Positions 796 through 9,013 of a DNA stretch of 31,040 nt are shown here, piece by piece (position 1 is the stretch's first letter; each line of letters starts with the position of its first letter). A model generated the notes under the pieces. That model was not told the DNA's origin. It did no database searches and worked only from the letters and a program-made list of their open reading frames with translations. Source of the stretch: an uncultured Candidatus Micrarchaeota archaeon (lineage in GTDB: Archaea; Micrarchaeota; Micrarchaeia; Micrarchaeales; Micrarchaeaceae); contig CAIOIN010000030.1 of NCBI GenBank assembly GCA_903858385.1, positions 1-31,040 of the forward strand, read 5' to 3'. Position numbers and translations under genes: made by a program.

Positions 796-2262
796 TTGCA
801 CGAACACGAGACCAGGATATTGAAACTGCTCAAGGAGAAGAGAATATCGAGCCTTGAAGACATAGAGGAGAGCCTCGGCATAGACGCCGATGCGGCGATG
901 TGGGCTCTTGACGGGCTCTCGAAGAGCGGCGCGGTGAAGGTGTCAAAAATCAAAACTTATGGAGTTGAGATAGTCAACGAAGGCAAGGATTACCTGAAAT
1001 TATTCCCCGAAGAGGAGCTTGTGAGATCGATCGGCAGAAAAGGGCAGGAGAAGCTCAGCGAGATAAAGGACAACGTAGCGCTTCTTTGGGCGAAGAAGAA
1101 CAATTGGATAGAGCTGCGCGAAGGCTACGCGAAGCTCACAAAAGTAGGAGCGGCTGCCAACGGTGCAGAATACGCCCAAAGGAAGGTGCTTGAAGGCCTA
1201 GCCGATGCCGATGAAGACAAAGTCGGAATCCTATTCGAGAAGAACAAGGCAGAGGTGGACACGCTAGTGAAGAGGGGATTGCTGCGCGTCAAGGAGAGAG
1301 AAAGGATAAGCCGCATAGAGATCACGGATGCTGGCACAAAGCTAAGCGGCACGAAGCCGGAAGGAGGCATGGGCGAGCTGACCAGGGAGATGATACTTAG
1401 CAAGAGCTGGGTGGGCAAGGATTTCAAGAAGTACGACGTGAACGCGAGTTCTGAGATGCTCTACCCGGCGAGGCAGCACATGATGCACGAGTTTATAGAC
1501 GTGGTAAGGAACACCTGGCTGAACATGGGCTTCTCGGAGATGGAGGGGCCGATAGTGGAGAGCGCGTTCTGGGTCTTCGACGCGCTGTTCTCGCCGCAGG
1601 ACCATCCTACAAGGGACATGCAGGACACCTTCTTCCTTTCCAATCCGAAGCAGATCGACATAGAGGACGTTGAGATGCTGGGCAGGGTCAAGAAGGCGCA
1701 CGAAGCCGCATGGAAGGAGAAATGGCAGGAGAGCCTGGCCAAGCAGGCGCTGCTCAGGACCCACACCACCAGCGTCTCGGCCAGGTACATCAAGAAATTC
1801 GCCAACGCGGTCGAGAGCAGCTATCCGATAAAGCTCTTCTCGGTGGGCAGGGTCTACAGGAATGAGAGCATAGATTACAAGCACCTGGCGGAGCTGTACC
1901 AGACCGACGGCATCATCATAGGCAACAACCTCACGTTCGCGAACCTCATAGACACGCTGAAGAGGTTCTACTCCCAATTGGGAATAGAGGACATCAAATT
2001 CAAACCGAGCTACTTCCCGTTCGTGGAGCCGGGGCTTGAAGCGTATTATTATGACGAAAAGCGCAAGTGCACCACGGAGCTGTGCGGCGCAGGCATAATA
2101 AGGAAGGAGATAACGACGGCCATGGGCACGAACAAGACCGTGCTGGCCTGGGGCATAGGCATAGAGAGGCTGCTGATGCATTTCTTCGAGGTCGACTCCA
2201 TAACCGACCTCTATAGGAACGACCTGTGGTGGCTCAGGAACAGGAAGAAGATTGAGGTGTAG
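796..2262 (+). CDS. pheS: Phenylalanine--tRNA ligase alpha subunit (archaeal type, N-terminal winged-helix extension)
   Basis: Motifs FDALFSPQDHPTRDMQDTFF, LLRTHTT, GRVYRNESIDYKHLAE, FKPSYFPFVEPGLE, WGIGIERL. TTG start 5 nt after GGTG. Confidence 0.97.
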   Translation: MHEHETRILKLLKEKRISSLEDIEESLGIDADAAMWALDGLSKSGAVKVSKIKTYGVEIVNEGKDYLKLFPEEELVRSIGRKGQEKLSEIKDNVALLWAKKNNWIELREGYAKLTKVGAAANGAEYAQRKVLEGLADADEDKVGILFEKNKAEVDTLVKRGLLRVKERERISRIEITDAGTKLSGTKPEGGMGELTREMILSKSWVGKDFKKYDVNASSEMLYPARQHMMHEFIDVVRNTWLNMGFSEMEGPIVESAFWVFDALFSPQDHPTRDMQDTFFLSNPKQIDIEDVEMLGRVKKAHEAAWKEKWQESLAKQALLRTHTTSVSARYIKKFANAVESSYPIKLFSVGRVYRNESIDYKHLAELYQTDGIIIGNNLTFANLIDTLKRFYSQLGIEDIKFKPSYFPFVEPGLEAYYYDEKRKCTTELCGAGIIRKEITTAMGTNKTVLAWGIGIERLLMHFFEVDSITDLYRNDLWWLRNRKKIEV

Positions 2263-2269
2263 TGTTCGC

Positions 2270-3922
2270 ATGGCCACAATAGATTACTCGATAAAGGACC
2301 TGAACGATTATGGCATTAGTGAGGACAAGCTGCCGAAGCTCGTGGAATCCATAGGGATGGAAATAGAAGGGATAAAGGACGGCGAGGCGACGATGAACAT
2401 AACCCCCAACAGGCCTGATCTTCTTGACATCGTGGGATTCAAAAGAGCCCTCCTCTCTTTCTCTGGAAAGATTGTGCCGAAGGATAATTTCTACAGCATG
2501 GACAAAGAGCCGGCAATGGAAATTACCGTGGAAGATTCAGTCAAGTCCGTAAGGCCGTACATAGCGGCAATGGTAGTCAGGAACGCGGACCTGAGCGGCA
2601 ACAAGCTGAAGTACCTGATAAATTTCACCGAGAAGCTCTGCGACACCTATGGCAGAAGGAGGAAGAAGCTTGCAATAGGGCTCCACAACCTTGACGCCAT
2701 CAAAGGCCCGTTGGTCTACGACGCTGTGCATGATGGCGAGCTTGTCCCGCTTGGCGAGAGCAAGAAGATGAAGTTTGAAGAGGTCATACGGAAGCATGGG
2801 AAGGGGATAGAATACGGAAGCATTATAACTGCGAACAATCCGAAGGCGCTCTACCCGTTCCTGTCGGACTCCAAGAACGTGCTTTCGCTTATTCCGATAA
2901 CGAATTCCAACATCACAAGGGTGCTGGGCAGCACCAGGAATCTGCTGGTTGAACTGACCGGAACATCGATCAACGCAGTCATGGATGCGTTGGGGATGAT
3001 TGCATGCTCTTTTATCGACTCCGGGGCAGAAGTGCAGCCGTGCGCGATAGTATACAAGAACAGGACGATGAACACGCCGCAATTGTCTTATAGGGAGTTC
3101 CGCATCAAGAAGTTCTCTGTGGACAAGACCATTGGCGTAATCATAGATGACAACCAGATGGTAACTCTGGCGAACAAGATGGGGCACACGGCCGCGAAAT
3201 ACGGGAATTTCCTGCTGGTCGGGGTGCCGCCCTACCGGCTCGACGTACTCAACGAACAGGACGTGGTGGAGGACCTCGCAATCGCCTACGGCTACGACCG
3301 GATTCAGCCTTTGCCTGTCGGCGGTTTTTCAATAGGCGTGCCAGAAGACTACAGGGATTATTCAAACAGCGCATCTAGTCTCATGATCGGGCTCGGATTC
3401 TCCGAGGCCATGAACACCTATTTGACAAACGAGAAGCTCAACTTCGAGAGCGTCGCGCACAAATACGAGCCAGCGTCGGTTGTCAGCATAGCCTACGCGA
3501 AGACCGAGGTCACGACCATGCTCAGGACCTCTATTCTGCCGCAGCTGCTGCAGAACCTTGGCCAGTCAATGCACGAGCGCATGCCGCAGAAGCTTTTTGA
3601 GATAGGTAGCGCATTCGGCGTCGAAAAGGGCAGGATAAAGGAAACGCACCTCATGGGTGTGGTCAGCGAGCATTCAAAGGCCAATTTCGCGGAGATGAAA
3701 TCGGTCGTAGAAGCCATGATGAGGCAGCTCGGTAGCGGCAAATATTCGATAGAAGATCTTGACGATCCTGCTTTCATAAAGGGAAGGTGCGCGTGCATCC
3801 GCATCGATGGAAAGACGGTCGGCCACTTCGGCGAGATAGCCCCGCAGGTCCTTGAAAATTTCAAGCTTGAGGAACCGGTGGTCGCGGCTGAGATAATGAT
3901 TGACCGCATGCGCAAGGTCTGA
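2270..3922 (+). CDS. pheT: Phenylalanine--tRNA ligase beta subunit
   Basis: ITPNRPDLL, B3/4 domain RRRKKLAIGLHNLD, VPPYRLDVL..DVVEDLAIAYGY, LRTSILPQLL. Follows pheS. ATG at 2270 after AGTG-N5. Confidence 0.96.
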   Translation: MATIDYSIKDLNDYGISEDKLPKLVESIGMEIEGIKDGEATMNITPNRPDLLDIVGFKRALLSFSGKIVPKDNFYSMDKEPAMEITVEDSVKSVRPYIAAMVVRNADLSGNKLKYLINFTEKLCDTYGRRRKKLAIGLHNLDAIKGPLVYDAVHDGELVPLGESKKMKFEEVIRKHGKGIEYGSIITANNPKALYPFLSDSKNVLSLIPITNSNITRVLGSTRNLLVELTGTSINAVMDALGMIACSFIDSGAEVQPCAIVYKNRTMNTPQLSYREFRIKKFSVDKTIGVIIDDNQMVTLANKMGHTAAKYGNFLLVGVPPYRLDVLNEQDVVEDLAIAYGYDRIQPLPVGGFSIGVPEDYRDYSNSASSLMIGLGFSEAMNTYLTNEKLNFESVAHKYEPASVVSIAYAKTEVTTMLRTSILPQLLQNLGQSMHERMPQKLFEIGSAFGVEKGRIKETHLMGVVSEHSKANFAEMKSVVEAMMRQLGSGKYSIEDLDDPAFIKGRCACIRIDGKTVGHFGEIAPQVLENFKLEEPVVAAEIMIDRMRKV

Positions 3923-3924
3923 TC

Positions 3925-4554
3925 TTAGTTCGTTGTTGATCCCTTCTCGACTTCGCTTCTGTGCTCTTCTGCTATCTTTTGCACAATGCCCAGCTTTGAG
4001 TTCAGGTAACTAGCCTGCCATCGCGTGAACTTCTCCCGCTTCCTCGTCGCCGTTTCAGTCATCTTTTTCTGCCATTTTGACCTCATCGCCGACCACTCAT
4101 CGGCAGTGTAGCCGTAGGGAGGACTTTCCTTTATGGTCTTGGGATTGTGCGAATTGGCGTACAACTCGGTGTAGTAATCGTAATCGACGTCGCGCGCGCT
4201 GGATGGATCCACGTGCACCCCCTCTTTCGAGAGCATTTTTACCAGCTCTCCCTGGCTCGTCTTGTCGCTAGAATTGTCTGCATTGCTCGGGTTGTAGATT
4301 ATGGTTATCTGGGCATCGTCAAAATCCACGGCCGCTTTTATCACGGCGCCGAGAAGCATGAGCCGGTACTGCAGACGCGCTGAGTGTGGGAGATCCAACA
4401 GCTCCGCTTTCTTCAGATTTGAGAAGGTGACTTTCCTCACCATCCGGTACGGCATGCGGTACTGCTTCCCTTCCTCGATGACATAAGGGCCTACCCCCGA
4501 GCCCGTCTTGGCTCCGTTGCTGCCTGTTCCAATGGGTGCATCTCTTCTGTCCAT
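3925..4554 (-). CDS. Hypothetical protein with an HMA/ferredoxin-like fold segment lacking the CxxC metal motif
   Basis: RLMLLGAVIKAAVDFDDAQITIIYNPS...KTSQGELVKMLSKEGV follows the HMA alpha-beta-beta-alpha pattern. The protein has no Cys. Its ATG overlaps the TGA of the radical SAM gene (TGATG). Fold call is from pattern recognition only. Confidence 0.6.
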   Translation of the reverse strand: MDRRDAPIGTGSNGAKTGSGVGPYVIEEGKQYRMPYRMVRKVTFSNLKKAELLDLPHSARLQYRLMLLGAVIKAAVDFDDAQITIIYNPSNADNSSDKTSQGELVKMLSKEGVHVDPSSARDVDYDYYTELYANSHNPKTIKESPPYGYTADEWSAMRSKWQKKMTETATRKREKFTRWQASYLNSKLGIVQKIAEEHRSEVEKGSTTN

Positions 4555-6362
4555 CACTTGACACCGCTGCTTTTCTGCCCTTCGGGCTTCTCAATGCTGA
4601 AGTTTGCCACAGGCTTGCCGCCGTTTACCGGCAGGGCGAAGTAATCCTTCAGGTTGCCGTAGGTCTTCCAGTATGCCTTGGACGATTCAAGCTGCTTTGG
4701 ATTCCTGATATACTTGTCCTTTGAGTATGTCCAGCCCGGATGGGTCCTCTGCCATTCGCTGGCAGGCGTGCTGTACTGCTTCTGTATCTTGTCCCTGTAG
4801 ATCTCGGGGAAGATGTTGAATGTGCAGAACGGCAGCACCTCGCCGTCGGGCATCGCGTAATGGACGGCGCATTTCTCGACTCGGCGCACATCGTAGTTGT
4901 ACTCGTCCTGGAAGTGCATCATGCCGAGGAACAGGGTCTTCATGTGGAACTTGCCCATGACTGAAAAATCGTGCTTCAGGAATATGGATTTGAGCAGTTC
5001 GGTGAAGTTTATGCTCTTCGGCTGCTTTGCCGAGTCTATGAACTTTCCAAGTCCGAGCAGCGCCTTCATGGCTATGGCCTTTCTCGCGAGCCTGCCCTTG
5101 CCTTTCATCTCAATTGTGGTGTTGTTGATGTACTCGAAAAGCCCCTGCACGTCCACGAATTCTGTGAGCGGAATTATCCTGCCGTCTGAATCTATGAACA
5201 GGTAGCAGGCGGCGCCGCAGGCGAAATGCACCGAAAGATCGTATTTGTATTCTCCGGTCAGCGATTCTATGAACTTGTTTATGCTGCCGACGTATGGAAC
5301 CGAGAACCAGTCATCCTTCTTTATCACACCATTCGTCTGCTGCTCTATGAGCTTTATCGCGCTCGGTATGGTTATTCTTTGCTTCTCCCTCATTCCGGTC
5401 GGCATGCGCCCCACGAGCGATACTGGCTGGAAGTTCACTGCTCTCACCACATCGAGATTGTTGATCGCAAAATTTATCGTGGCGCCGAGCTCGTGCTCGT
5501 TCATGGTCCTTATCACCGTAGGTACGAGCACTATGCCCAATTTCGACTTTCTCGCTGCGTTGAGTATCATGGGTATTTCCCAGTGGTTCTTCGGGTTCGT
5601 CCTCTTCGACACTCCGTCGAAGCTCATGTAAAGCGTGCTTGTGCCTGCGTGCTTCAGCTCGTAGGCAAGATCGGGATTGAGGCCGATGTTTATGCCGGTC
5701 GTGTTGAGCTGGACCTGGTCGAAGCCCTCCTCTTTCGCCATCTTCACTATGTCGACTATCTGCGGGTGCATGGTCGGCTCGCCGCCGGTTATCTGTATCG
5801 CGTTCGTCGATATGGGCTTCTGGTTCTTCAGGCTCTTGAACATCTTCCTTATTTCATCGAGGTTCGGCTCGTATATCGGCTCGCCCTCTTTCGCAAAGAA
5901 GAAGCAGTACCAGCATGAGAGGTGGCATCTGTTGGTCACGACGACGTTCGCAAGGCCGGTGTGCGTCTGATGGCGCTCACACATGCCGCAATCGAACGGG
6001 CAATTGGCGCCCTTCGTCTTTGTCGTATAGTTGGGATTGTCGAAGCCGCGGCCTGCATAGTCGTACTTCTTCATCTTCATGTACATGTCGTAGTCTTCCC
6101 AGTACTTCTCGACGGTAAGCCCGTGCTCCGGGCAGCTCTTCCTTATCATCACGTTGTCTCCGTCCTTGTAGATTATGCCCTCTATGAGCAGCTTGCACTC
6201 CGGGCACACGGTTGTGGTCCTGTCTATCACCGGCATGCCTTCCATCTCCGCGACGGTCCTGTGGTATGGGGCGAGCACCGGATCTACAATGGGGGATGCA
6301 TGCTTCACGCTCGCCGAATCTTCCGCGCCTTCGACGGCATACACGCTATCCTGGCTGCTCAT
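4554..6362 (-). CDS. tes: Radical SAM enzyme of the MJ0619 family, likely tetraether lipid synthase (Tes/GDGT-MAS)
   Basis: N-terminal CPEC...CPEHG rubredoxin-like site, CPFDCGMCERH auxiliary cluster motif, CxxxCxxC (NRCHLSCWYC), QITGGEPT, VRAVNFQPVSLVGR, C-terminal MHFQDEYNYDVRRVEKCAVHYAMPDGEVLPFC. Confidence 0.85.
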   Translation of the reverse strand: MSSQDSVYAVEGAEDSASVKHASPIVDPVLAPYHRTVAEMEGMPVIDRTTTVCPECKLLIEGIIYKDGDNVMIRKSCPEHGLTVEKYWEDYDMYMKMKKYDYAGRGFDNPNYTTKTKGANCPFDCGMCERHQTHTGLANVVVTNRCHLSCWYCFFFAKEGEPIYEPNLDEIRKMFKSLKNQKPISTNAIQITGGEPTMHPQIVDIVKMAKEEGFDQVQLNTTGINIGLNPDLAYELKHAGTSTLYMSFDGVSKRTNPKNHWEIPMILNAARKSKLGIVLVPTVIRTMNEHELGATINFAINNLDVVRAVNFQPVSLVGRMPTGMREKQRITIPSAIKLIEQQTNGVIKKDDWFSVPYVGSINKFIESLTGEYKYDLSVHFACGAACYLFIDSDGRIIPLTEFVDVQGLFEYINNTTIEMKGKGRLARKAIAMKALLGLGKFIDSAKQPKSINFTELLKSIFLKHDFSVMGKFHMKTLFLGMMHFQDEYNYDVRRVEKCAVHYAMPDGEVLPFCTFNIFPEIYRDKIQKQYSTPASEWQRTHPGWTYSKDKYIRNPKQLESSKAYWKTYGNLKDYFALPVNGGKPVANFSIEKPEGQKSSGVK

Positions 6363-6368
6363 CGCTTA

Positions 6369-6403
6369 CACTCCTTGTTTTTGCGTTTTGAAGGTATTTT
6401 AAA
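6369..6403 (-). promoter_or_regulatory. Putative TATA box (TTTAAAA, 6403-6397) and Shine-Dalgarno (AGGAGTG, 6375-6369) of tes
   Basis: Both motifs read directly on the minus strand with archaeal-type spacing upstream of the ATG at 6362. Confidence 0.5.
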
Positions 6404-6470: not shown

Positions 6471-7199
6471 TCAGTTTTCTCTCCATCTGGCCACATAACG
6501 TGCGATGAAAAGGTACACGACCGTCTCTGCAAGAAGTATGACGAGCATTAACCATGACATTGGCTCTAAACCGAATAATCCTTGCTCCAGCACCGCTGCG
6601 GGAGTGGAAGGCAGGATCGCAAGAACGAAAAGCACGCTCTTCGGTATGTAGGTGTATGGGTAGAATGTAGGCGCTATTACCGTCAACAGCGTCGATAGCA
6701 TCATCGATATCGCCCACGATTTCCTCGTGTATTTTACAAAACTGAGTATGGAGAATACTAGGGATAGAGTTGCGACGGTGACAAGAATGCACACTGCCAT
6801 GGTCATCACCAGATTGTATGGGGTCAGTAGGTGGTAGGACATATCCAATGCCAAGTACAGCAGTATGCTGGGTATCGACCATTCGAAGCTGCCCAGCATT
6901 TCTCCGAACATGTAATCCAATGGCCCGGTCTTTGTGGCGATTATGAGATCCTGATGCCGGTCGTCCAATCTGAACTGCGTGAGCTCTCCGGCTGACTGTA
7001 TGCTGTTGGTGACCATCATTGACACCAGACCCCCTGCAAGAGCGTAGGGCAGCAGTTCGCCGTGGGAAAGCACCCCGACGACAAAAAGAAGCGATAGTGG
7101 AAGGCATAGGTTGGCGATGATGTAATAGTAGCTGGACTTGATTGCAGCAAGCCCGGTGAACCAACCATGCGCTAGTATATATCTAATATTCAAGTTCAA
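6471..7199 (-). CDS. ABC-2 type exporter permease
   Basis: About six hydrophobic segments. Overlaps the 3' end of the upstream ABC ATPase. Confidence 0.8.
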   Translation of the reverse strand: MNLNIRYILAHGWFTGLAAIKSSYYYIIANLCLPLSLLFVVGVLSHGELLPYALAGGLVSMMVTNSIQSAGELTQFRLDDRHQDLIIATKTGPLDYMFGEMLGSFEWSIPSILLYLALDMSYHLLTPYNLVMTMAVCILVTVATLSLVFSILSFVKYTRKSWAISMMLSTLLTVIAPTFYPYTYIPKSVLFVLAILPSTPAAVLEQGLFGLEPMSWLMLVILLAETVVYLFIARYVARWREN

Positions 7200-8022
7200 C
7201 GCCCCTTTTTATGAAAAGATCGTCCAGAGTTATGGGTTTTATTATGTCGCCGACCATTACTGACGCCTCTGCTTCGTTTTTCCCGATGTATGAGATGTAT
7301 GTATTGCCCACCTTGTACGAATGGCTTTTCTTCTTGGTGCTTTCGACTCTTACCTTCCCTTTGAAAGGCTTGAGCAGATCCCCCACCTTTCCCTGCGAGA
7401 GTATCTTGCCCTTGTCCATCATGAGCACATCGTCCGAAAGGGCCTGCGCCTCTTCCATGTAGTGCGTGGTCAATATGACCTGGCCTTTTATGGCTTTTAT
7501 GGCAGACCACACCTCTATCCTTGATAATGGATCAAGCCCGGTTGTTGGCTCGTCTAAGAACACCACATCGGATTTCGATGCGATGGCCATGGCCACGAAT
7601 ATCTTCCTTTTCATGCCGCCTGAAAGCTCGTCTGATATCTTTTCCCTCACTTTCCAGAGGCCGACCGTCTTGATCGCCTTTTCTGCGGCTTCTTTCGCTT
7701 CGGACATTCGCATGCGCCTTGCCGAAAGATACAGTACAACGTTGTCCAATGGACTGAGGTAATTTATCGGCTTCGATTCCTGGGGTATGCTAACAATGAT
7801 ATTCCTGACATCCTGCGCGGCTTTTACCACATCAAGCCCGTTTATCGAAGCGGTACCTGAGGTCGGAAGGAGCTGCGTTGACAGTATTCTCAAAAGCGTG
7901 GTCTTGCCCGCGCCGTTCCTCCCTATTATCGACGTCGTTTTCTTATTGAGTGTGAAGTTGACGCCGTCTAAAGCAAGAGTGCCGTCCTTGTAGCGTTTTG
8001 TTATCGCTCTCGCTTCTATCAT
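7183..8022 (-). CDS. ABC transporter ATP-binding protein (DrrA/CcmA-like exporter)
   Basis: Walker A GRNGAGKTT, signature LSGGMKRK, Walker B VFLDEPTTGLDP, H-loop LTTHYMEEA. Start placed at ATG 8022 (MIEARAITK); the ORF track extends to 8067. Confidence 0.93.
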   Translation of the reverse strand: MIEARAITKRYKDGTLALDGVNFTLNKKTTSIIGRNGAGKTTLLRILSTQLLPTSGTASINGLDVVKAAQDVRNIIVSIPQESKPINYLSPLDNVVLYLSARRMRMSEAKEAAEKAIKTVGLWKVREKISDELSGGMKRKIFVAMAIASKSDVVFLDEPTTGLDPLSRIEVWSAIKAIKGQVILTTHYMEEAQALSDDVLMMDKGKILSQGKVGDLLKPFKGKVRVESTKKKSHSYKVGNTYISYIGKNEAEASVMVGDIIKPITLDDLFIKRGVELEY

Positions 8023-8070
8023 CGCATCCACTGCGTTTTCGAAGTACGATTTATTATGGGTTTTCACGGG

Positions 8071-8958
8071 TCAGACGCTTATGCCGAAGACGTGGCGTAT
8101 CAGCATGCCGATGATGAAGAGTATTATGGCTGTCGCGAACATTATGCCGGCCAGTTCGGTGAAATCTTTTTTGAAGTTGCTGCCGGTCATTATGGAGTTG
8201 TACCAGCTCACCGATGCTATTATCAGCACGCAAAGCGCTATCGACGATGCCATGGCTGTGAACATCGTGCTGGTCAGGAAGTAGGGCGCGGCGAGCACCA
8301 GAGTGCTCAAGAAGTACGATGCTCCGGTGTATCCGGCTGCGGTAAATGGCGAGCCCTTGAATCCCTGTTTCGCCTGCAGGTATGCTGCAGAGGCCATCGA
8401 GATCGATGCTGCTGCTCCGGCGATTATTCCGGCAAGGCCCGTGAGGATTGTTGAGTGGTACACCCCCAACGATCCCGTGTATATGGCGGTCACCTCAACC
8501 AACGCATCGGCGAGCCCGAGCACTATGAACGAGACGTATTTTATGTACGAATCTTGGATCTGGTCCGCGAACGCCTTTTCGTGTGACTCTTCGTCCTTGA
8601 TTATCATTTCGAGGAGCTTCTTGTCCTTGCTCGGTATCAAAGCCCTCAACGAGCTGTAGTTTTTGACTGCGTCCCCTTCGGTACTTTCGAGATATTTCAC
8701 TACGAACGCCGCTCCGAGCAGATGCCGAAGGAAAAGCAGTGTGTAGACTTTGGCGTAGTCGGGGCGTACGGACTCGTATTTGCAGTATCTGCCCCAGAAC
8801 AGGTAATGCTTATGTTCGGTTGCCGCTAGCTTCGAGAATATTTCGCAGAGCTTCTTGTCTTTTCCCATGTGCGAGAGCTTCGAATATATCGTGTAATCGG
8901 TTAGCTCTCCCTTGCGCCCTTCGATTGCTGCCTCTTCAAGAGATTTTTTGGGTGACAA
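8071..8958 (-). CDS. Erythrin (ferritin-like)-VIT1/CCC1 fusion, MbfA-like iron exporter
   Basis: Two ExxH diiron motifs (ATEHKHY, DEESHEK) followed by the VIT1 motif IVLGLADALVEV..G..AGAAASISMA and TM helices. TTG start at 8958 inferred from AGTG-N5; ATG 8982 is the alternative. Confidence 0.85.
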   Translation of the reverse strand: MSPKKSLEEAAIEGRKGELTDYTIYSKLSHMGKDKKLCEIFSKLAATEHKHYLFWGRYCKYESVRPDYAKVYTLLFLRHLLGAAFVVKYLESTEGDAVKNYSSLRALIPSKDKKLLEMIIKDEESHEKAFADQIQDSYIKYVSFIVLGLADALVEVTAIYTGSLGVYHSTILTGLAGIIAGAAASISMASAAYLQAKQGFKGSPFTAAGYTGASYFLSTLVLAAPYFLTSTMFTAMASSIALCVLIIASVSWYNSIMTGSNFKKDFTELAGIMFATAIILFIIGMLIRHVFGISV

Positions 8959-9013
8959 TTGCTCACTGCGTTCGATTAACATGCACAGGCAGTTATTAAA
9001 TCATTGCAGCGGA

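What the first reader, a model, noticed from the sequence alone, without database searches (positions are those of the whole stretch)
4554..6362. Intact-looking tetraether lipid synthase (Tes/GDGT-MAS) in a probable DPANN genome
Seen in sequence: all metal-binding motifs of the MJ0619 family are present (rubredoxin CPEC/CPEH, CxxxCxxCxxH auxiliary cluster, radical SAM triad). The C-terminal Met and Tyr lie 20 residues apart (MHFQD...HY), which matches my recollection of Met439/Tyr459 in M. jannaschii GDGT-MAS. Established: MJ0619/Tes joins phytanyl tails to make macrocyclic archaeol and GDGT, and many DPANN lack lipid backbone synthesis and take lipids from hosts. Inference: this cell may remodel host-derived or own diether lipids into membrane-spanning tetraethers.
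Basis: partly seen in the sequence, partly recalled or inferred. Interest (0 to 1): 0.72.

Follow-up and report, generated by a model that had tools for sequence, protein, structure and literature searches.

The report
Native Micrarchaeota tetraether synthase with partner
The gene is a genuine tetraether lipid synthase (Tes) native to a small Micrarchaeota (DPANN) genome that builds most of its own ether lipids, which makes it fairly ordinary; the new part is an undescribed small partner protein that always travels with it and is predicted to bind it.

Summary
ORF 4554-6362(-) encodes a 602-aa protein above the NCBIfam Tes equivalog cut-off (672.6 vs 450 bits). It aligns end to end with M. jannaschii GDGT-MAS (7TOL, E 6e-126). 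Every metal ligand, Met482 (=Met439) and Tyr502 (=Tyr459) is present.

The genome is Micrarchaeota, so DPANN is right. The "lipid scavenger" framing is only partly right. The 85%-complete genome encodes a classical mevalonate route, GGPP synthase, GGGPS, a UbiA prenyltransferase, CarS, GGR and a head-group transferase. Only G1P dehydrogenase was not found.

Across the window's order the counts are: Tes 88/91, GGGPS 90/91, HMG-CoA reductase 49/91, G1PDH 1/91.

Tes is native, not host contamination. It lies on single-contig genomes including cultured ARM-1, often beside pheST. It forms one clade that follows taxonomy, about 50% identical to its nearest outside relatives (Thermococcus, Archaeoglobales).

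Tes homologs in DPANN MAGs were already reported (Zeng 2022), so Tes alone is a new member of a known kind.

New here is a 209-aa Cys-less HMA-fold protein. It lies directly downstream in 79/80 loci, co-occurs perfectly with Tes, and is predicted to bind its rubredoxin/[Fe4S4]N face (ipSAE 0.91, best control 0.00).

The parts
4554..6362 (-). tes: tetraether lipid synthase (Tes/GDGT-MAS), 602 aa. Domains: rubredoxin-like (C53,C56,C77,H80), [Fe4S4]N (C121,C125,C128,H131), radical SAM core (C146,C150,C153), C-terminal [Fe4S4]C (C382,C498,C513 + labile M482; Y502). Also a clade-conserved C-terminal extension (~543-580) absent from MJ0619.
3925..4554 (-). Tes-linked partner gene, 209 aa, no cysteine. 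Its ATG overlaps the tes stop codon (TGATG). Structure: beta-hairpin, HMA/ferredoxin-like beta-alpha-beta-beta-alpha-beta core (res 38-126), then a long helical hairpin (151-207). Predicted to bind Tes.
6396..6403 (-). TTTAAAAT, a TATA-box-like element 34 nt upstream of the tes ATG; candidate promoter of the two-gene operon
   Evidence: read from the sequence; function is inferred
6371..6374 (-). GGAG, Shine-Dalgarno-like, 8 nt upstream of the tes ATG
   Evidence: read from the sequence; function is inferred
2252..3922 (+). pheT (PheRS beta subunit), convergent with the tes-partner operon. This housekeeping neighbour is conserved next to the operon in 41/80 related loci, which anchors tes in the Micrarchaeota chromosome.

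Best explanation
Window 4554-6362(-) encodes a functional tetraether lipid synthase that is native to and vertically inherited in this Micrarchaeota lineage. By homology to MJ0619 it works as follows. The radical SAM cluster cleaves SAM, and the 5'-deoxyadenosyl radical abstracts H from the terminal methyl of a fully saturated phytanyl chain of a diether phospholipid. The substrate radical is parked as a C-S bond on the C-terminal [Fe4S4] cluster after Met482 swings off. A second SAM-derived radical on a second tail then attacks to form the C(sp3)-C(sp3) bond. Repeating this gives GDGT-0 via GTGT; the intramolecular version gives macrocyclic archaeol. The substrate is most likely the cell's own archaetidyl lipid. 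It would be built by the genome's mevalonate route, GGPP synthase, GGGPS, UbiA/DGGGPS, CarS, GGR and a CDP-alcohol transferase, on a glycerol-1-phosphate backbone the cell apparently cannot make itself (no G1PDH). Tes is co-transcribed and probably translationally coupled with a 209-aa Cys-less HMA-fold protein. I infer this protein is an accessory subunit that docks on the surface-exposed rubredoxin and [Fe4S4]N domains. Shown here: family membership, cofactor ligands, nativeness, pathway context, synteny and co-occurrence. Inferred: catalytic activity, the actual substrate source, and the partner's binding and role. The candidate roles (electron-donor docking, cluster shielding, membrane tethering) are speculation.
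For: Membership: NF045702 scores 672.6 bits against a cut-off of 450. The same model over its cut-off rings only in the three control genomes with validated Tes (M. jannaschii, S. acidocaldarius, M. acetivorans). 7TOL gives E 5.9e-126 over residues 42-542. All 13 metal-ligand Cys/His plus M482 and Y502 are invariant in 79 sequences. Nativeness: Tes occurs in 88/91 genomes of the order, including single-contig genomes G033 (= ARM-1), G016, G100, G108, G038 and G042. pheT/pheS lie next to it in 41/80 loci. The f1+f2 clade is monophyletic (SH-aLRT 100) with f2 basal and f1 nested, and its neighbours are other Micrarchaeota families and Thermococcus/Archaeoglobales rather than Thermoplasmatales or Sulfolobales hosts. 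GC is 0.536 against 0.522 for the genome, and codon-usage r is 0.93. Own pathway: GGGPS, CarS, HMGR, MVK and DMD are above equivalog cut-offs, GGR above its subfamily cut-off, and UbiA, GGPPS, HMGS and the CDP-OH transferase above Pfam cut-offs. GGGPS is present in 90/91 genomes of the order. Mechanism as established for MJ0619: PMC9433317. Partner: directly downstream on the same strand in 79/80 loci, with gaps from -4 to +126 nt for non-overlapping start calls, and a TGATG overlap here. Its profile is found in exactly the same genomes as Tes (f1 54/56, f2 34/35; absent from G145, G177 and G124, which also lack Tes). The complex model gives ipSAE 0.91 against a best of 3 controls of 0.00. That mark was reached by 58 of 80 solved complexes and 2 of 110 mismatched pairs, which holds only roughly here because my own alignments were used. 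The runs share at least 84% of contacts and partner pLDDT is at least 79. 17 of 35 conserved partner residues lie in the interface (odds 3.4, p 0.0016), including 6 of 10 invariant ones.
Against: There is no biochemical or lipid data for this organism. Having a Tes homolog does not guarantee GDGT production: Zeng 2022 note halobacterial Tes homologs in strains without GDGTs. G1PDH was not found in this genome or in 90/91 relatives, so the native pathway is not self-sufficient and some host input is needed. In the only lipid study of a cultured relative (Ca. Micrarchaeum harzensis), co-culture lipids could not be told apart from the host's, and the authors inferred dependence on host lipids or precursors (PMC8975820). 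The genome is 85% complete. IDI and isopentenyl phosphate kinase were not searched. UbiA, GGPPS, PMK and HMGS score below NCBIfam equivalog cut-offs. Partner binding is a prediction only. The interface-conservation test is not independent of the alignment the model used. MJ0619 and MA_1486 work without such a partner.
Confidence: 0.8

Rival explanations
1. Tes here remodels host-derived diether lipids taken up by the symbiont rather than lipids the cell assembles itself.
For: G1PDH was not found in this genome or in 90/91 relatives. HMG-CoA reductase is missing from about half of the order, including single-contig genomes, yet Tes is kept there. MJ0619 binds head groups non-specifically, so imported diethers would be acceptable substrates. 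Krause 2022 infer dependence on host lipids or precursors.
Against: GGGPS is kept in 90/91 genomes of the order. This genome also has UbiA/DGGGPS, CarS, GGR and a full mevalonate route. Those genes would serve no purpose if finished diethers were imported. Known hosts of acidophilic relatives already carry about 97% GDGT, which leaves little diether to remodel.
Confidence: 0.13
2. The gene belongs to a co-binned host or other archaeon, as Zeng et al. 2022 suspected for Tes homologs in DPANN MAGs.
For: Zeng 2022 raised this possibility. The assembly is a fragmented MAG of 135 contigs. A few near-identical operons sit in bins labelled Marsarchaeota or Acidoferrum.
Against: Tes is on the same contig as pheS/pheT and other housekeeping genes, and that synteny holds in 41/80 loci. 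It is present on single-contig or complete Micrarchaeota genomes including ARM-1. Contamination is 0.4%. Composition and codon usage match the genome. The clade is monophyletic and only about 50% identical to any other lineage.
Confidence: 0.02
3. The protein is a Tes-family enzyme with a shifted product or role in this lineage: for example only macrocyclic archaeol, a different tail-tail coupling, or a non-catalytic relic.
For: The clade is about 50% identical to characterised Tes enzymes. It carries a conserved C-terminal extension and a lineage-specific partner. Halobacterial homologs occur without GDGTs. In a few relatives the gene looks broken (G194 with two in-frame TAA, G063 split into two frames).
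Against: Every cofactor ligand, Met482 and Tyr502 is invariant. The score is well above the equivalog cut-off and far above the nearest paralogous model (TrsS 301 bits, below its 490 cut-off). Alignment to 7TOL is full length.
Confidence: 0.05

Closest known systems
GDGT-MAS / Tes of Methanocaldococcus jannaschii (MJ0619; PDB 7TOL/7TOM)
   Same: Full-length alignment (E 5.9e-126). Same four-domain layout. Identical ligand patterns for the rubredoxin Fe, [Fe4S4]N, [Fe4S4]RS and [Fe4S4]C, with the labile Met and the conserved Tyr.
   Different: It has about 44 extra N-terminal residues, of which 27-44 are conserved in the clade. It has about 60 extra C-terminal residues with invariant aromatic and basic positions. 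The loop at 108-116 is 3-4 residues longer and is predicted to touch the partner. MJ0619 is active alone in vitro.
Tes of Sulfolobus acidocaldarius (Saci_0703) and Methanosarcina acetivorans (MA_1486)
   Same: Same NCBIfam equivalog. The model over its cut-off rings in exactly these validated genomes among 14 controls.
   Different: Their sequences could not be placed on my tree because no tool returned them. No dedicated partner has been reported for them in the papers read.
Intein-containing Tes of Thermococcus/Archaeoglobales (NF045703)
   Same: These are the nearest non-Micrarchaeota relatives, about 50% identical, in a clade with SH-aLRT 98 together with the Micrarchaeota types.
   Different: They carry a LAGLIDADG intein, which is absent here. 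In Thermococcus the gene 11 nt downstream is DUF3213, with no detectable similarity to the partner found here.
TrsS radical SAM (seleno)protein, the nearest paralogous NCBIfam model
   Same: Shares the zinc-ribbon/rubredoxin N-terminus and the radical SAM core (301 bits over residues 48-352).
   Different: It scores below its own cut-off (490) and does not cover the C-terminal [Fe4S4]C domain, so this protein is not a member.
HMA (heavy-metal-associated) domains such as the ATP7B MBDs, CopZ and Atx1, for the partner protein
   Same: The partner's core (res 38-124) superposes with Z 10.9, rmsd 1.4 A over 72 residues.
   Different: It has no CxxC motif and no cysteine at all (sequence). It has no Pfam HMA hit. 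It adds an N-terminal beta-hairpin and a roughly 55-residue helical hairpin, and is predicted to bind a protein rather than a metal.

Membership tests
Tes / GDGT-MAS (NCBIfam NF045702) | Whole-protein score above the curated equivalog cut-off | tested here: met
   672.6 bits against 450. At this cut-off the controls ring only in M. jannaschii, S. acidocaldarius and M. acetivorans.
Tes / GDGT-MAS | Radical SAM CX3CX2C triad | tested here: met
   C146/C150/C153, invariant in 79 sequences. Pfam PF04055 gives 83.5 bits.
Tes / GDGT-MAS | Rubredoxin-like Fe site C-X2-C-X20-C-X2-H | tested here: met
   C53/C56/C77/H80 with identical spacing. PF23545 gives 52.8 bits.
Tes / GDGT-MAS | [Fe4S4]N ligated by three Cys and one His (C73, C77, C80, His in MJ0619) | tested here: met
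   C121/C125/C128/H131 align to them and are invariant.
Tes / GDGT-MAS | [Fe4S4]C with three Cys and the labile Met439, plus the strictly conserved Tyr459 | tested here: met
   M482 and Y502 align to Met439 and Tyr459. C382, C498 and C513 align with MJ0619 Cys and are invariant. The ligand identity of the three Cys is inferred from the alignment; I did not read it from the structure.
Tes / GDGT-MAS | Catalyses tail-to-tail C-C coupling of saturated diethers to GDGT or macrocyclic archaeol | not testable with these tools
   Needs heterologous expression or an in-vitro assay with LC-MS.
Tes / GDGT-MAS | The organism can supply the substrate (a saturated archaetidyl diether) | tested here: inconclusive
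   GGGPS, UbiA, CarS, GGR, GGPPS, the mevalonate genes and a CDP-OH transferase are present. G1PDH was not found in an 85%-complete genome, nor in 90/91 relatives.
HMA domain (PF00403), for the partner | Beta-alpha-beta-beta-alpha-beta fold | tested here: met
   AF2 model with pLDDT 88. VIA-align gives Z 10.9, rmsd 1.4 A over 72 residues.
HMA domain (PF00403), for the partner | Metal-binding CxxC motif in the beta1-alpha1 loop, and a sequence-profile match | tested here: not met
   The protein has no cysteine. No Pfam HMA hit in any of 73 homologs, even at E<=10. It has the HMA fold but is not filed as an HMA metal-binding domain.
DUF3213 (PF11491; PDB 2F40), the gene after Tes in Thermococcus | Detectable sequence or structural similarity to the partner | tested here: inconclusive
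   hhalign probability 0.2%, with only a QYxL motif aligned. 2F40 is not among the 50 best VIA-align rows.

The most novel reading that the evidence does not exclude
In Micrarchaeales, Tes works as an obligate two-subunit enzyme. The Cys-less HMA-fold partner docks on the rubredoxin/[Fe4S4]N face, where it controls electron delivery to the surface metal centres or protects them. This lets host-dependent cells that lack G1P dehydrogenase (and in half the order HMG-CoA reductase as well) turn diethers built from host-supplied precursors into their own GDGT monolayer. These abundant pond, peat and soil nano-archaea would then be an overlooked in-situ source of GDGT-0, and Tes would have a first known protein partner.
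Probability: 0.3. Interest if true: 0.62.

Novelty: new variant of a known kind. Interest (0 to 1): 0.45.

Why it matters
Taken alone, the Tes gene is an ordinary new member of a family described in 2022, and its presence in DPANN MAGs was already noted. Three points go beyond that.

1. The doubt raised in the discovery paper, that DPANN Tes genes might belong to hosts, is settled for Micrarchaeales. The gene is native, vertically inherited and near-universal there.

2. The order keeps the whole late lipid-assembly line including Tes, while it has lost G1PDH and often HMG-CoA reductase. This points to dependence on precursors rather than on finished lipids. It bears on who makes GDGT-0 in ponds, peat and soils, where GDGT-based proxies are used.

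3. A strictly co-inherited, lineage-specific HMA-fold protein is predicted to bind the rubredoxin/[Fe4S4]N face of Tes. The roles of those two surface cofactors are unresolved in the papers read, and none of them names a physiological electron donor. A dedicated partner gives a concrete handle for experiments.

Tried and rejected
- Rfam scan of the window: no RNA family.
- G1PDH: not found with PF13685 in the own genome. Not found by tblastn with four G1PDH sequences from the same phylum (best E 0.12). Not found with a G1PDH protein query in five single-contig relatives. PF00465 and PF01761 were not searched separately.
- Upstream ABC-2 transporter genes (6471-8067): no counterpart in any of the 80 related loci, so they are not part of the module.
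- Partner protein: no Pfam family at E<=0.1. Scanning all 73 homologs at E<=10 gave only scattered chance hits. Foldseek against PDB gave no match at E<=0.001. AFDB clusters gave only weak HMA-like rows. The ESM Atlas returned only Microcaldota clusters above 0.9.
- DUF3213 (the gene after Tes in Thermococcus) as a distant homolog of the partner: hhalign probability 0.2%, and 2F40 is not in the top 50 VIA-align rows. Left open, not supported.
- P0003-type Tes (unknown lineage): the gene downstream is a methyltransferase and there is no partner.
- Expression: no RNA holder is listed among public runs.
- Phylogeny: the validated Saci_0703, MJ0619 and MA_1486 sequences could not be placed on the tree because no tool returned them as sequences. 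I relied on the NCBIfam controls and the 7TOL alignment instead. The tree is a quick LG+G4 search with SH-aLRT support only. No AU test was run and no root was inferred.
- I did not fold Tes itself, because the sequence match to 7TOL made that unnecessary.
Full report
**Observation.** The window has an uninterrupted ORF at 4554..6362 on the minus strand, encoding 602 aa.
- Pfam finds a radical SAM core (83.5 bits) and the N-terminal zinc ribbon named after MJ0619 (PF23545, 52.8 bits).
- NCBIfam scores 672.6 bits on the Tes equivalog NF045702, whose cut-off is 450. The next family, TrsS, reaches 301 bits, below its own cut-off of 490.
- The closest solved structure is M. jannaschii GDGT-MAS (7TOL), with E 5.9e-126 over residues 42-542.

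Reading that alignment against Lloyd et al. 2022 (PMC9433317) gives the following equivalences:

| Site | This protein | MJ0619 |
|---|---|---|
| Rubredoxin-like Fe | C53/C56/C77/H80 | C9X2C12X20C33X2H36 (same spacing) |
| [Fe4S4]N | C121/C125/C128/H131 | C73/C77/C80 + His |
| Radical SAM triad | C146/C150/C153 | CX3CX2C |
| Labile [Fe4S4]C ligand | Met482 | Met439 |
| Conserved Tyr | Tyr502 | Tyr459 |

C382, C498 and C513 align with MJ0619 cysteines and are the probable [Fe4S4]C ligands. All of these residues are invariant in 79 Micrarchaeota homologs.

**Whose genome.** The assembly is 761,931 bp in 135 contigs, 84.8% complete, 0.4% contaminated, GC 0.52.
- The 80 best Tes loci among 185,579 species genomes are 67-86% identical. 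All but seven are labelled Micrarchaeota; five of the seven are labelled Marsarchaeota and two Acidiferrales/Acidoferrum. NCBI now calls the phylum Microcaldota.
- The 80 loci include the complete genome of cultured ARM-1 (AP024486), a Mancarchaeum bin and a closed chromosome.
- Handle G033, in the window's own family, has one contig of 814,439 bp and a Tes identical to ARM-1's.
- The DPANN assignment therefore holds. Record titles suggest the family Micrarchaeaceae, which is an inference.
- Pond metagenomes from two studies hold most of the stretch. One of them may be the source sample.

**Is Tes native?** Zeng et al. 2022 had already reported Tes homologs in DPANN MAGs. They called this unexpected and suggested the genes might belong to hosts (PMC8941075). 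Five lines of evidence argue against that here.
1. In 200 sampled genomes of the phylum, Tes is present in 54/56 genomes of the window's family and 34/35 of its sister family. These include the single-contig genomes G016, G033, G100, G108, G038 and G042. It is present in only 6/109 genomes of other families.
2. In the window, tes is convergent with pheT/pheS, and that arrangement recurs in 41/80 related loci.
3. GC (0.536 vs 0.522) and codon usage (r 0.93 against eight window genes) match the genome.
4. On a 101-row tree, the Tes of the two families forms one clade (SH-aLRT 100), with the sister family basal and the window's family nested inside. That pattern fits vertical descent.
5. The nearest outside relatives are only about 50% identical: Thermococcus and Archaeoglobales (with inteins), then Bathyarchaeia and Thorarchaeota. 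None is Thermoplasmatales or Sulfolobales, the known host lineages.

Four genomes of other Micrarchaeota families carry a shorter Tes type that sits in a separate clade.

| Step | Result in this genome |
|---|---|
| GGGPS | TIGR01769, 191.5 > 161.6 |
| CarS | 164 > 148 |
| GGR family | 166 > 158.8, plus a second paralog |
| UbiA prenyltransferase | Pfam 107 bits; DGGGPS models below cut-off |
| GGPP/short-chain prenyl synthase | Pfam 218 bits |
| Class-II HMG-CoA reductase | 385 > 260 |
| Mevalonate kinase | 177.6 > 163 |
| Diphosphomevalonate decarboxylase | 268 > 171; MVK-HMGR-DMD cluster on one contig |
| ERG8-like phosphomevalonate kinase | below cut-off |
| HMG-CoA synthase-like | weak |
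| CDP-alcohol phosphatidyltransferase | Pfam 24 bits |
| G1P dehydrogenase | not found |

This is the eukaryote-type mevalonate route reported for ARM-1 (PMC8784108). G1P dehydrogenase was not found by Pfam model or by tblastn.

Order-wide counts are:

| Gene | Genomes with a hit |
|---|---|
| GGGPS | 90/91 |
| Tes | 88/91 |
| HMG-CoA reductase | 49/91 |
| G1PDH | 1/91 |

No G1PDH was found in five single-contig genomes either. The G1PDH gap and the patchy HMGR agree with Krause 2022 for Ca. Micrarchaeum harzensis and with Rao 2025, who infer loss of G1PDH in the Micrarchaeota ancestor. Neither paper mentions Tes.

The cell is therefore not a lipid scavenger in the Nanoarchaeum sense. It keeps the whole assembly line and seems to need the glycerol-phosphate backbone from outside; many relatives also need isoprenoid precursors.

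**The partner gene.** Another first-stage note on this genome flagged a small gene coupled to tes.
- Position: it lies at 3925-4554(-), and its ATG overlaps the tes stop codon (TGATG). A TTTAAAAT box and a GGAG precede tes.
- Synteny: a homolog lies directly downstream on the same strand in 79/80 loci. The one exception ends 131 bp after tes.
- Co-occurrence: a profile of 73 homologs finds it in exactly the genomes that have this Tes clade. It is missing from the three genomes of the order that lack Tes. A weak, shorter version follows the sister-type Tes of another family (G020).
- Fold: it has no Pfam family and no cysteine. It folds confidently (pLDDT 88) into a beta-hairpin, an HMA-type core and a long helical hairpin. 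The core superposes on ATP7B and CopZ domains at Z 10.9, rmsd 1.4 A over 72 residues.
- Predicted binding: a complex prediction with controls gave ipSAE 0.91 against a best of 3 controls of 0.00. That mark was reached by 58 of 80 solved complexes and 2 of 110 mismatched pairs, which holds only roughly here because my own alignments were used. The runs share at least 84% of contacts, and partner pLDDT is at least 79.
- Interface: it covers Tes 56-60 (the rubredoxin knuckle), 105-129 (the [Fe4S4]N ligand loop), patches of the radical SAM domain, and 505-533.
- Conservation: conserved partner residues are enriched in the interface (17 of 35, p 0.0016). This test is not independent of the alignment used for the model.
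- Literature: no solved complex of this kind exists, and a 2026 review of lipid radical SAM enzymes names no Tes partner.
- Outside relatives: in Thermococcus a DUF3213 gene follows tes by 11 nt, but I could not link it to this partner.

**Mechanism and verdict.**
- Activity: the enzyme most likely performs the MJ0619 chemistry on saturated diether phospholipids. That chemistry is two SAM-derived radicals per C-C bond, with the first substrate radical stored on [Fe4S4]C after Met482 dissociates. I put about 0.8 on this.
- Substrate: it is more likely self-assembled than host-derived, because GGGPS, DGGGPS, CarS and GGR are retained.
- Partner: it is very likely functionally tied to Tes and probably binds it, at about 0.6-0.7. 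Its role is unknown. Electron-donor docking, cluster shielding and membrane tethering are guesses.
- Novelty: Tes alone is a new member of a known family that had already been noted in DPANN. The strictly coupled Tes-partner operon is an undescribed variant.
- Interest: moderate.

Noticed in passing
G194:C1:309997-310905 and G063:C1:264809-266267 (relatives): In two relatives of the same family the tes gene looks damaged. In G194 there are two in-frame TAA codons and only the C-terminal part matches. In G063 the gene is split into two adjacent frames. The partner gene next to each is intact. These could be pseudogenes or assembly errors.
   Followed up: no
L023, L059, L028, L044, L071, L090: Bins labelled Candidatus Acidiferrales/Acidoferrum (bacteria) or Marsarchaeota carry the Micrarchaeota-type tes-partner operon at 68-73% identity, in several cases with pheT/pheS. 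These contigs are probably mis-binned or mislabelled.
   Followed up: partly
order-level tally: HMG-CoA reductase is patchy across the order: 49/91 overall, 34/70 among high-quality genomes, and absent from several single-contig genomes. GGGPS and Tes are nearly universal. HMGR scores fall into distinct bands (about 440, 350, 330-270 and 170-220 bits), which suggests several types or origins.
   Followed up: no
G000:C60:3288-6554 (L107-L109, L008): Mevalonate kinase, class-II HMG-CoA reductase and diphosphomevalonate decarboxylase lie as a cluster on one contig. This is a eukaryote/Sulfolobales-type mevalonate route like that reported for ARM-1.
   Followed up: partly
L114/L115:6140-6445: In Thermococcus the intein-containing tes is followed after 11 nt by a 101-aa DUF3213 gene, whose family has a solved structure (2F40, PF1455). 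This may be another small Tes-linked protein. No similarity to the Micrarchaeales partner could be shown.
   Followed up: partly
L116:1326-1817 (G020): A 163-aa ORF downstream of the sister-type Tes in another Micrarchaeota family carries the partner's LQY.L helix motif (26.5 bits to the partner profile). The module therefore seems older than the window's order.
   Followed up: partly
window 8071-8982 (-): A 303-aa protein combines a rubrerythrin/ferritin-like N-terminal part with a VIT1 iron-transporter domain. It is conserved only in the closest relative, L011.
   Followed up: no
G000:C32:3775-4461 (L010): A second radical SAM/SPASM-type gene, cut off by the contig end. Its best models (TIGR04053, PTO1314 family) score far below their cut-offs. 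It is not a Tes paralog.
   Followed up: no
G005, G052, G139, G156: Four genomes of other Micrarchaeota families have a shorter Tes type (about 490-530 aa, about 560 bits). It forms a separate, well-supported clade with representative P0026 and has no partner gene. This points to an independent origin of Tes within the phylum.
   Followed up: partly
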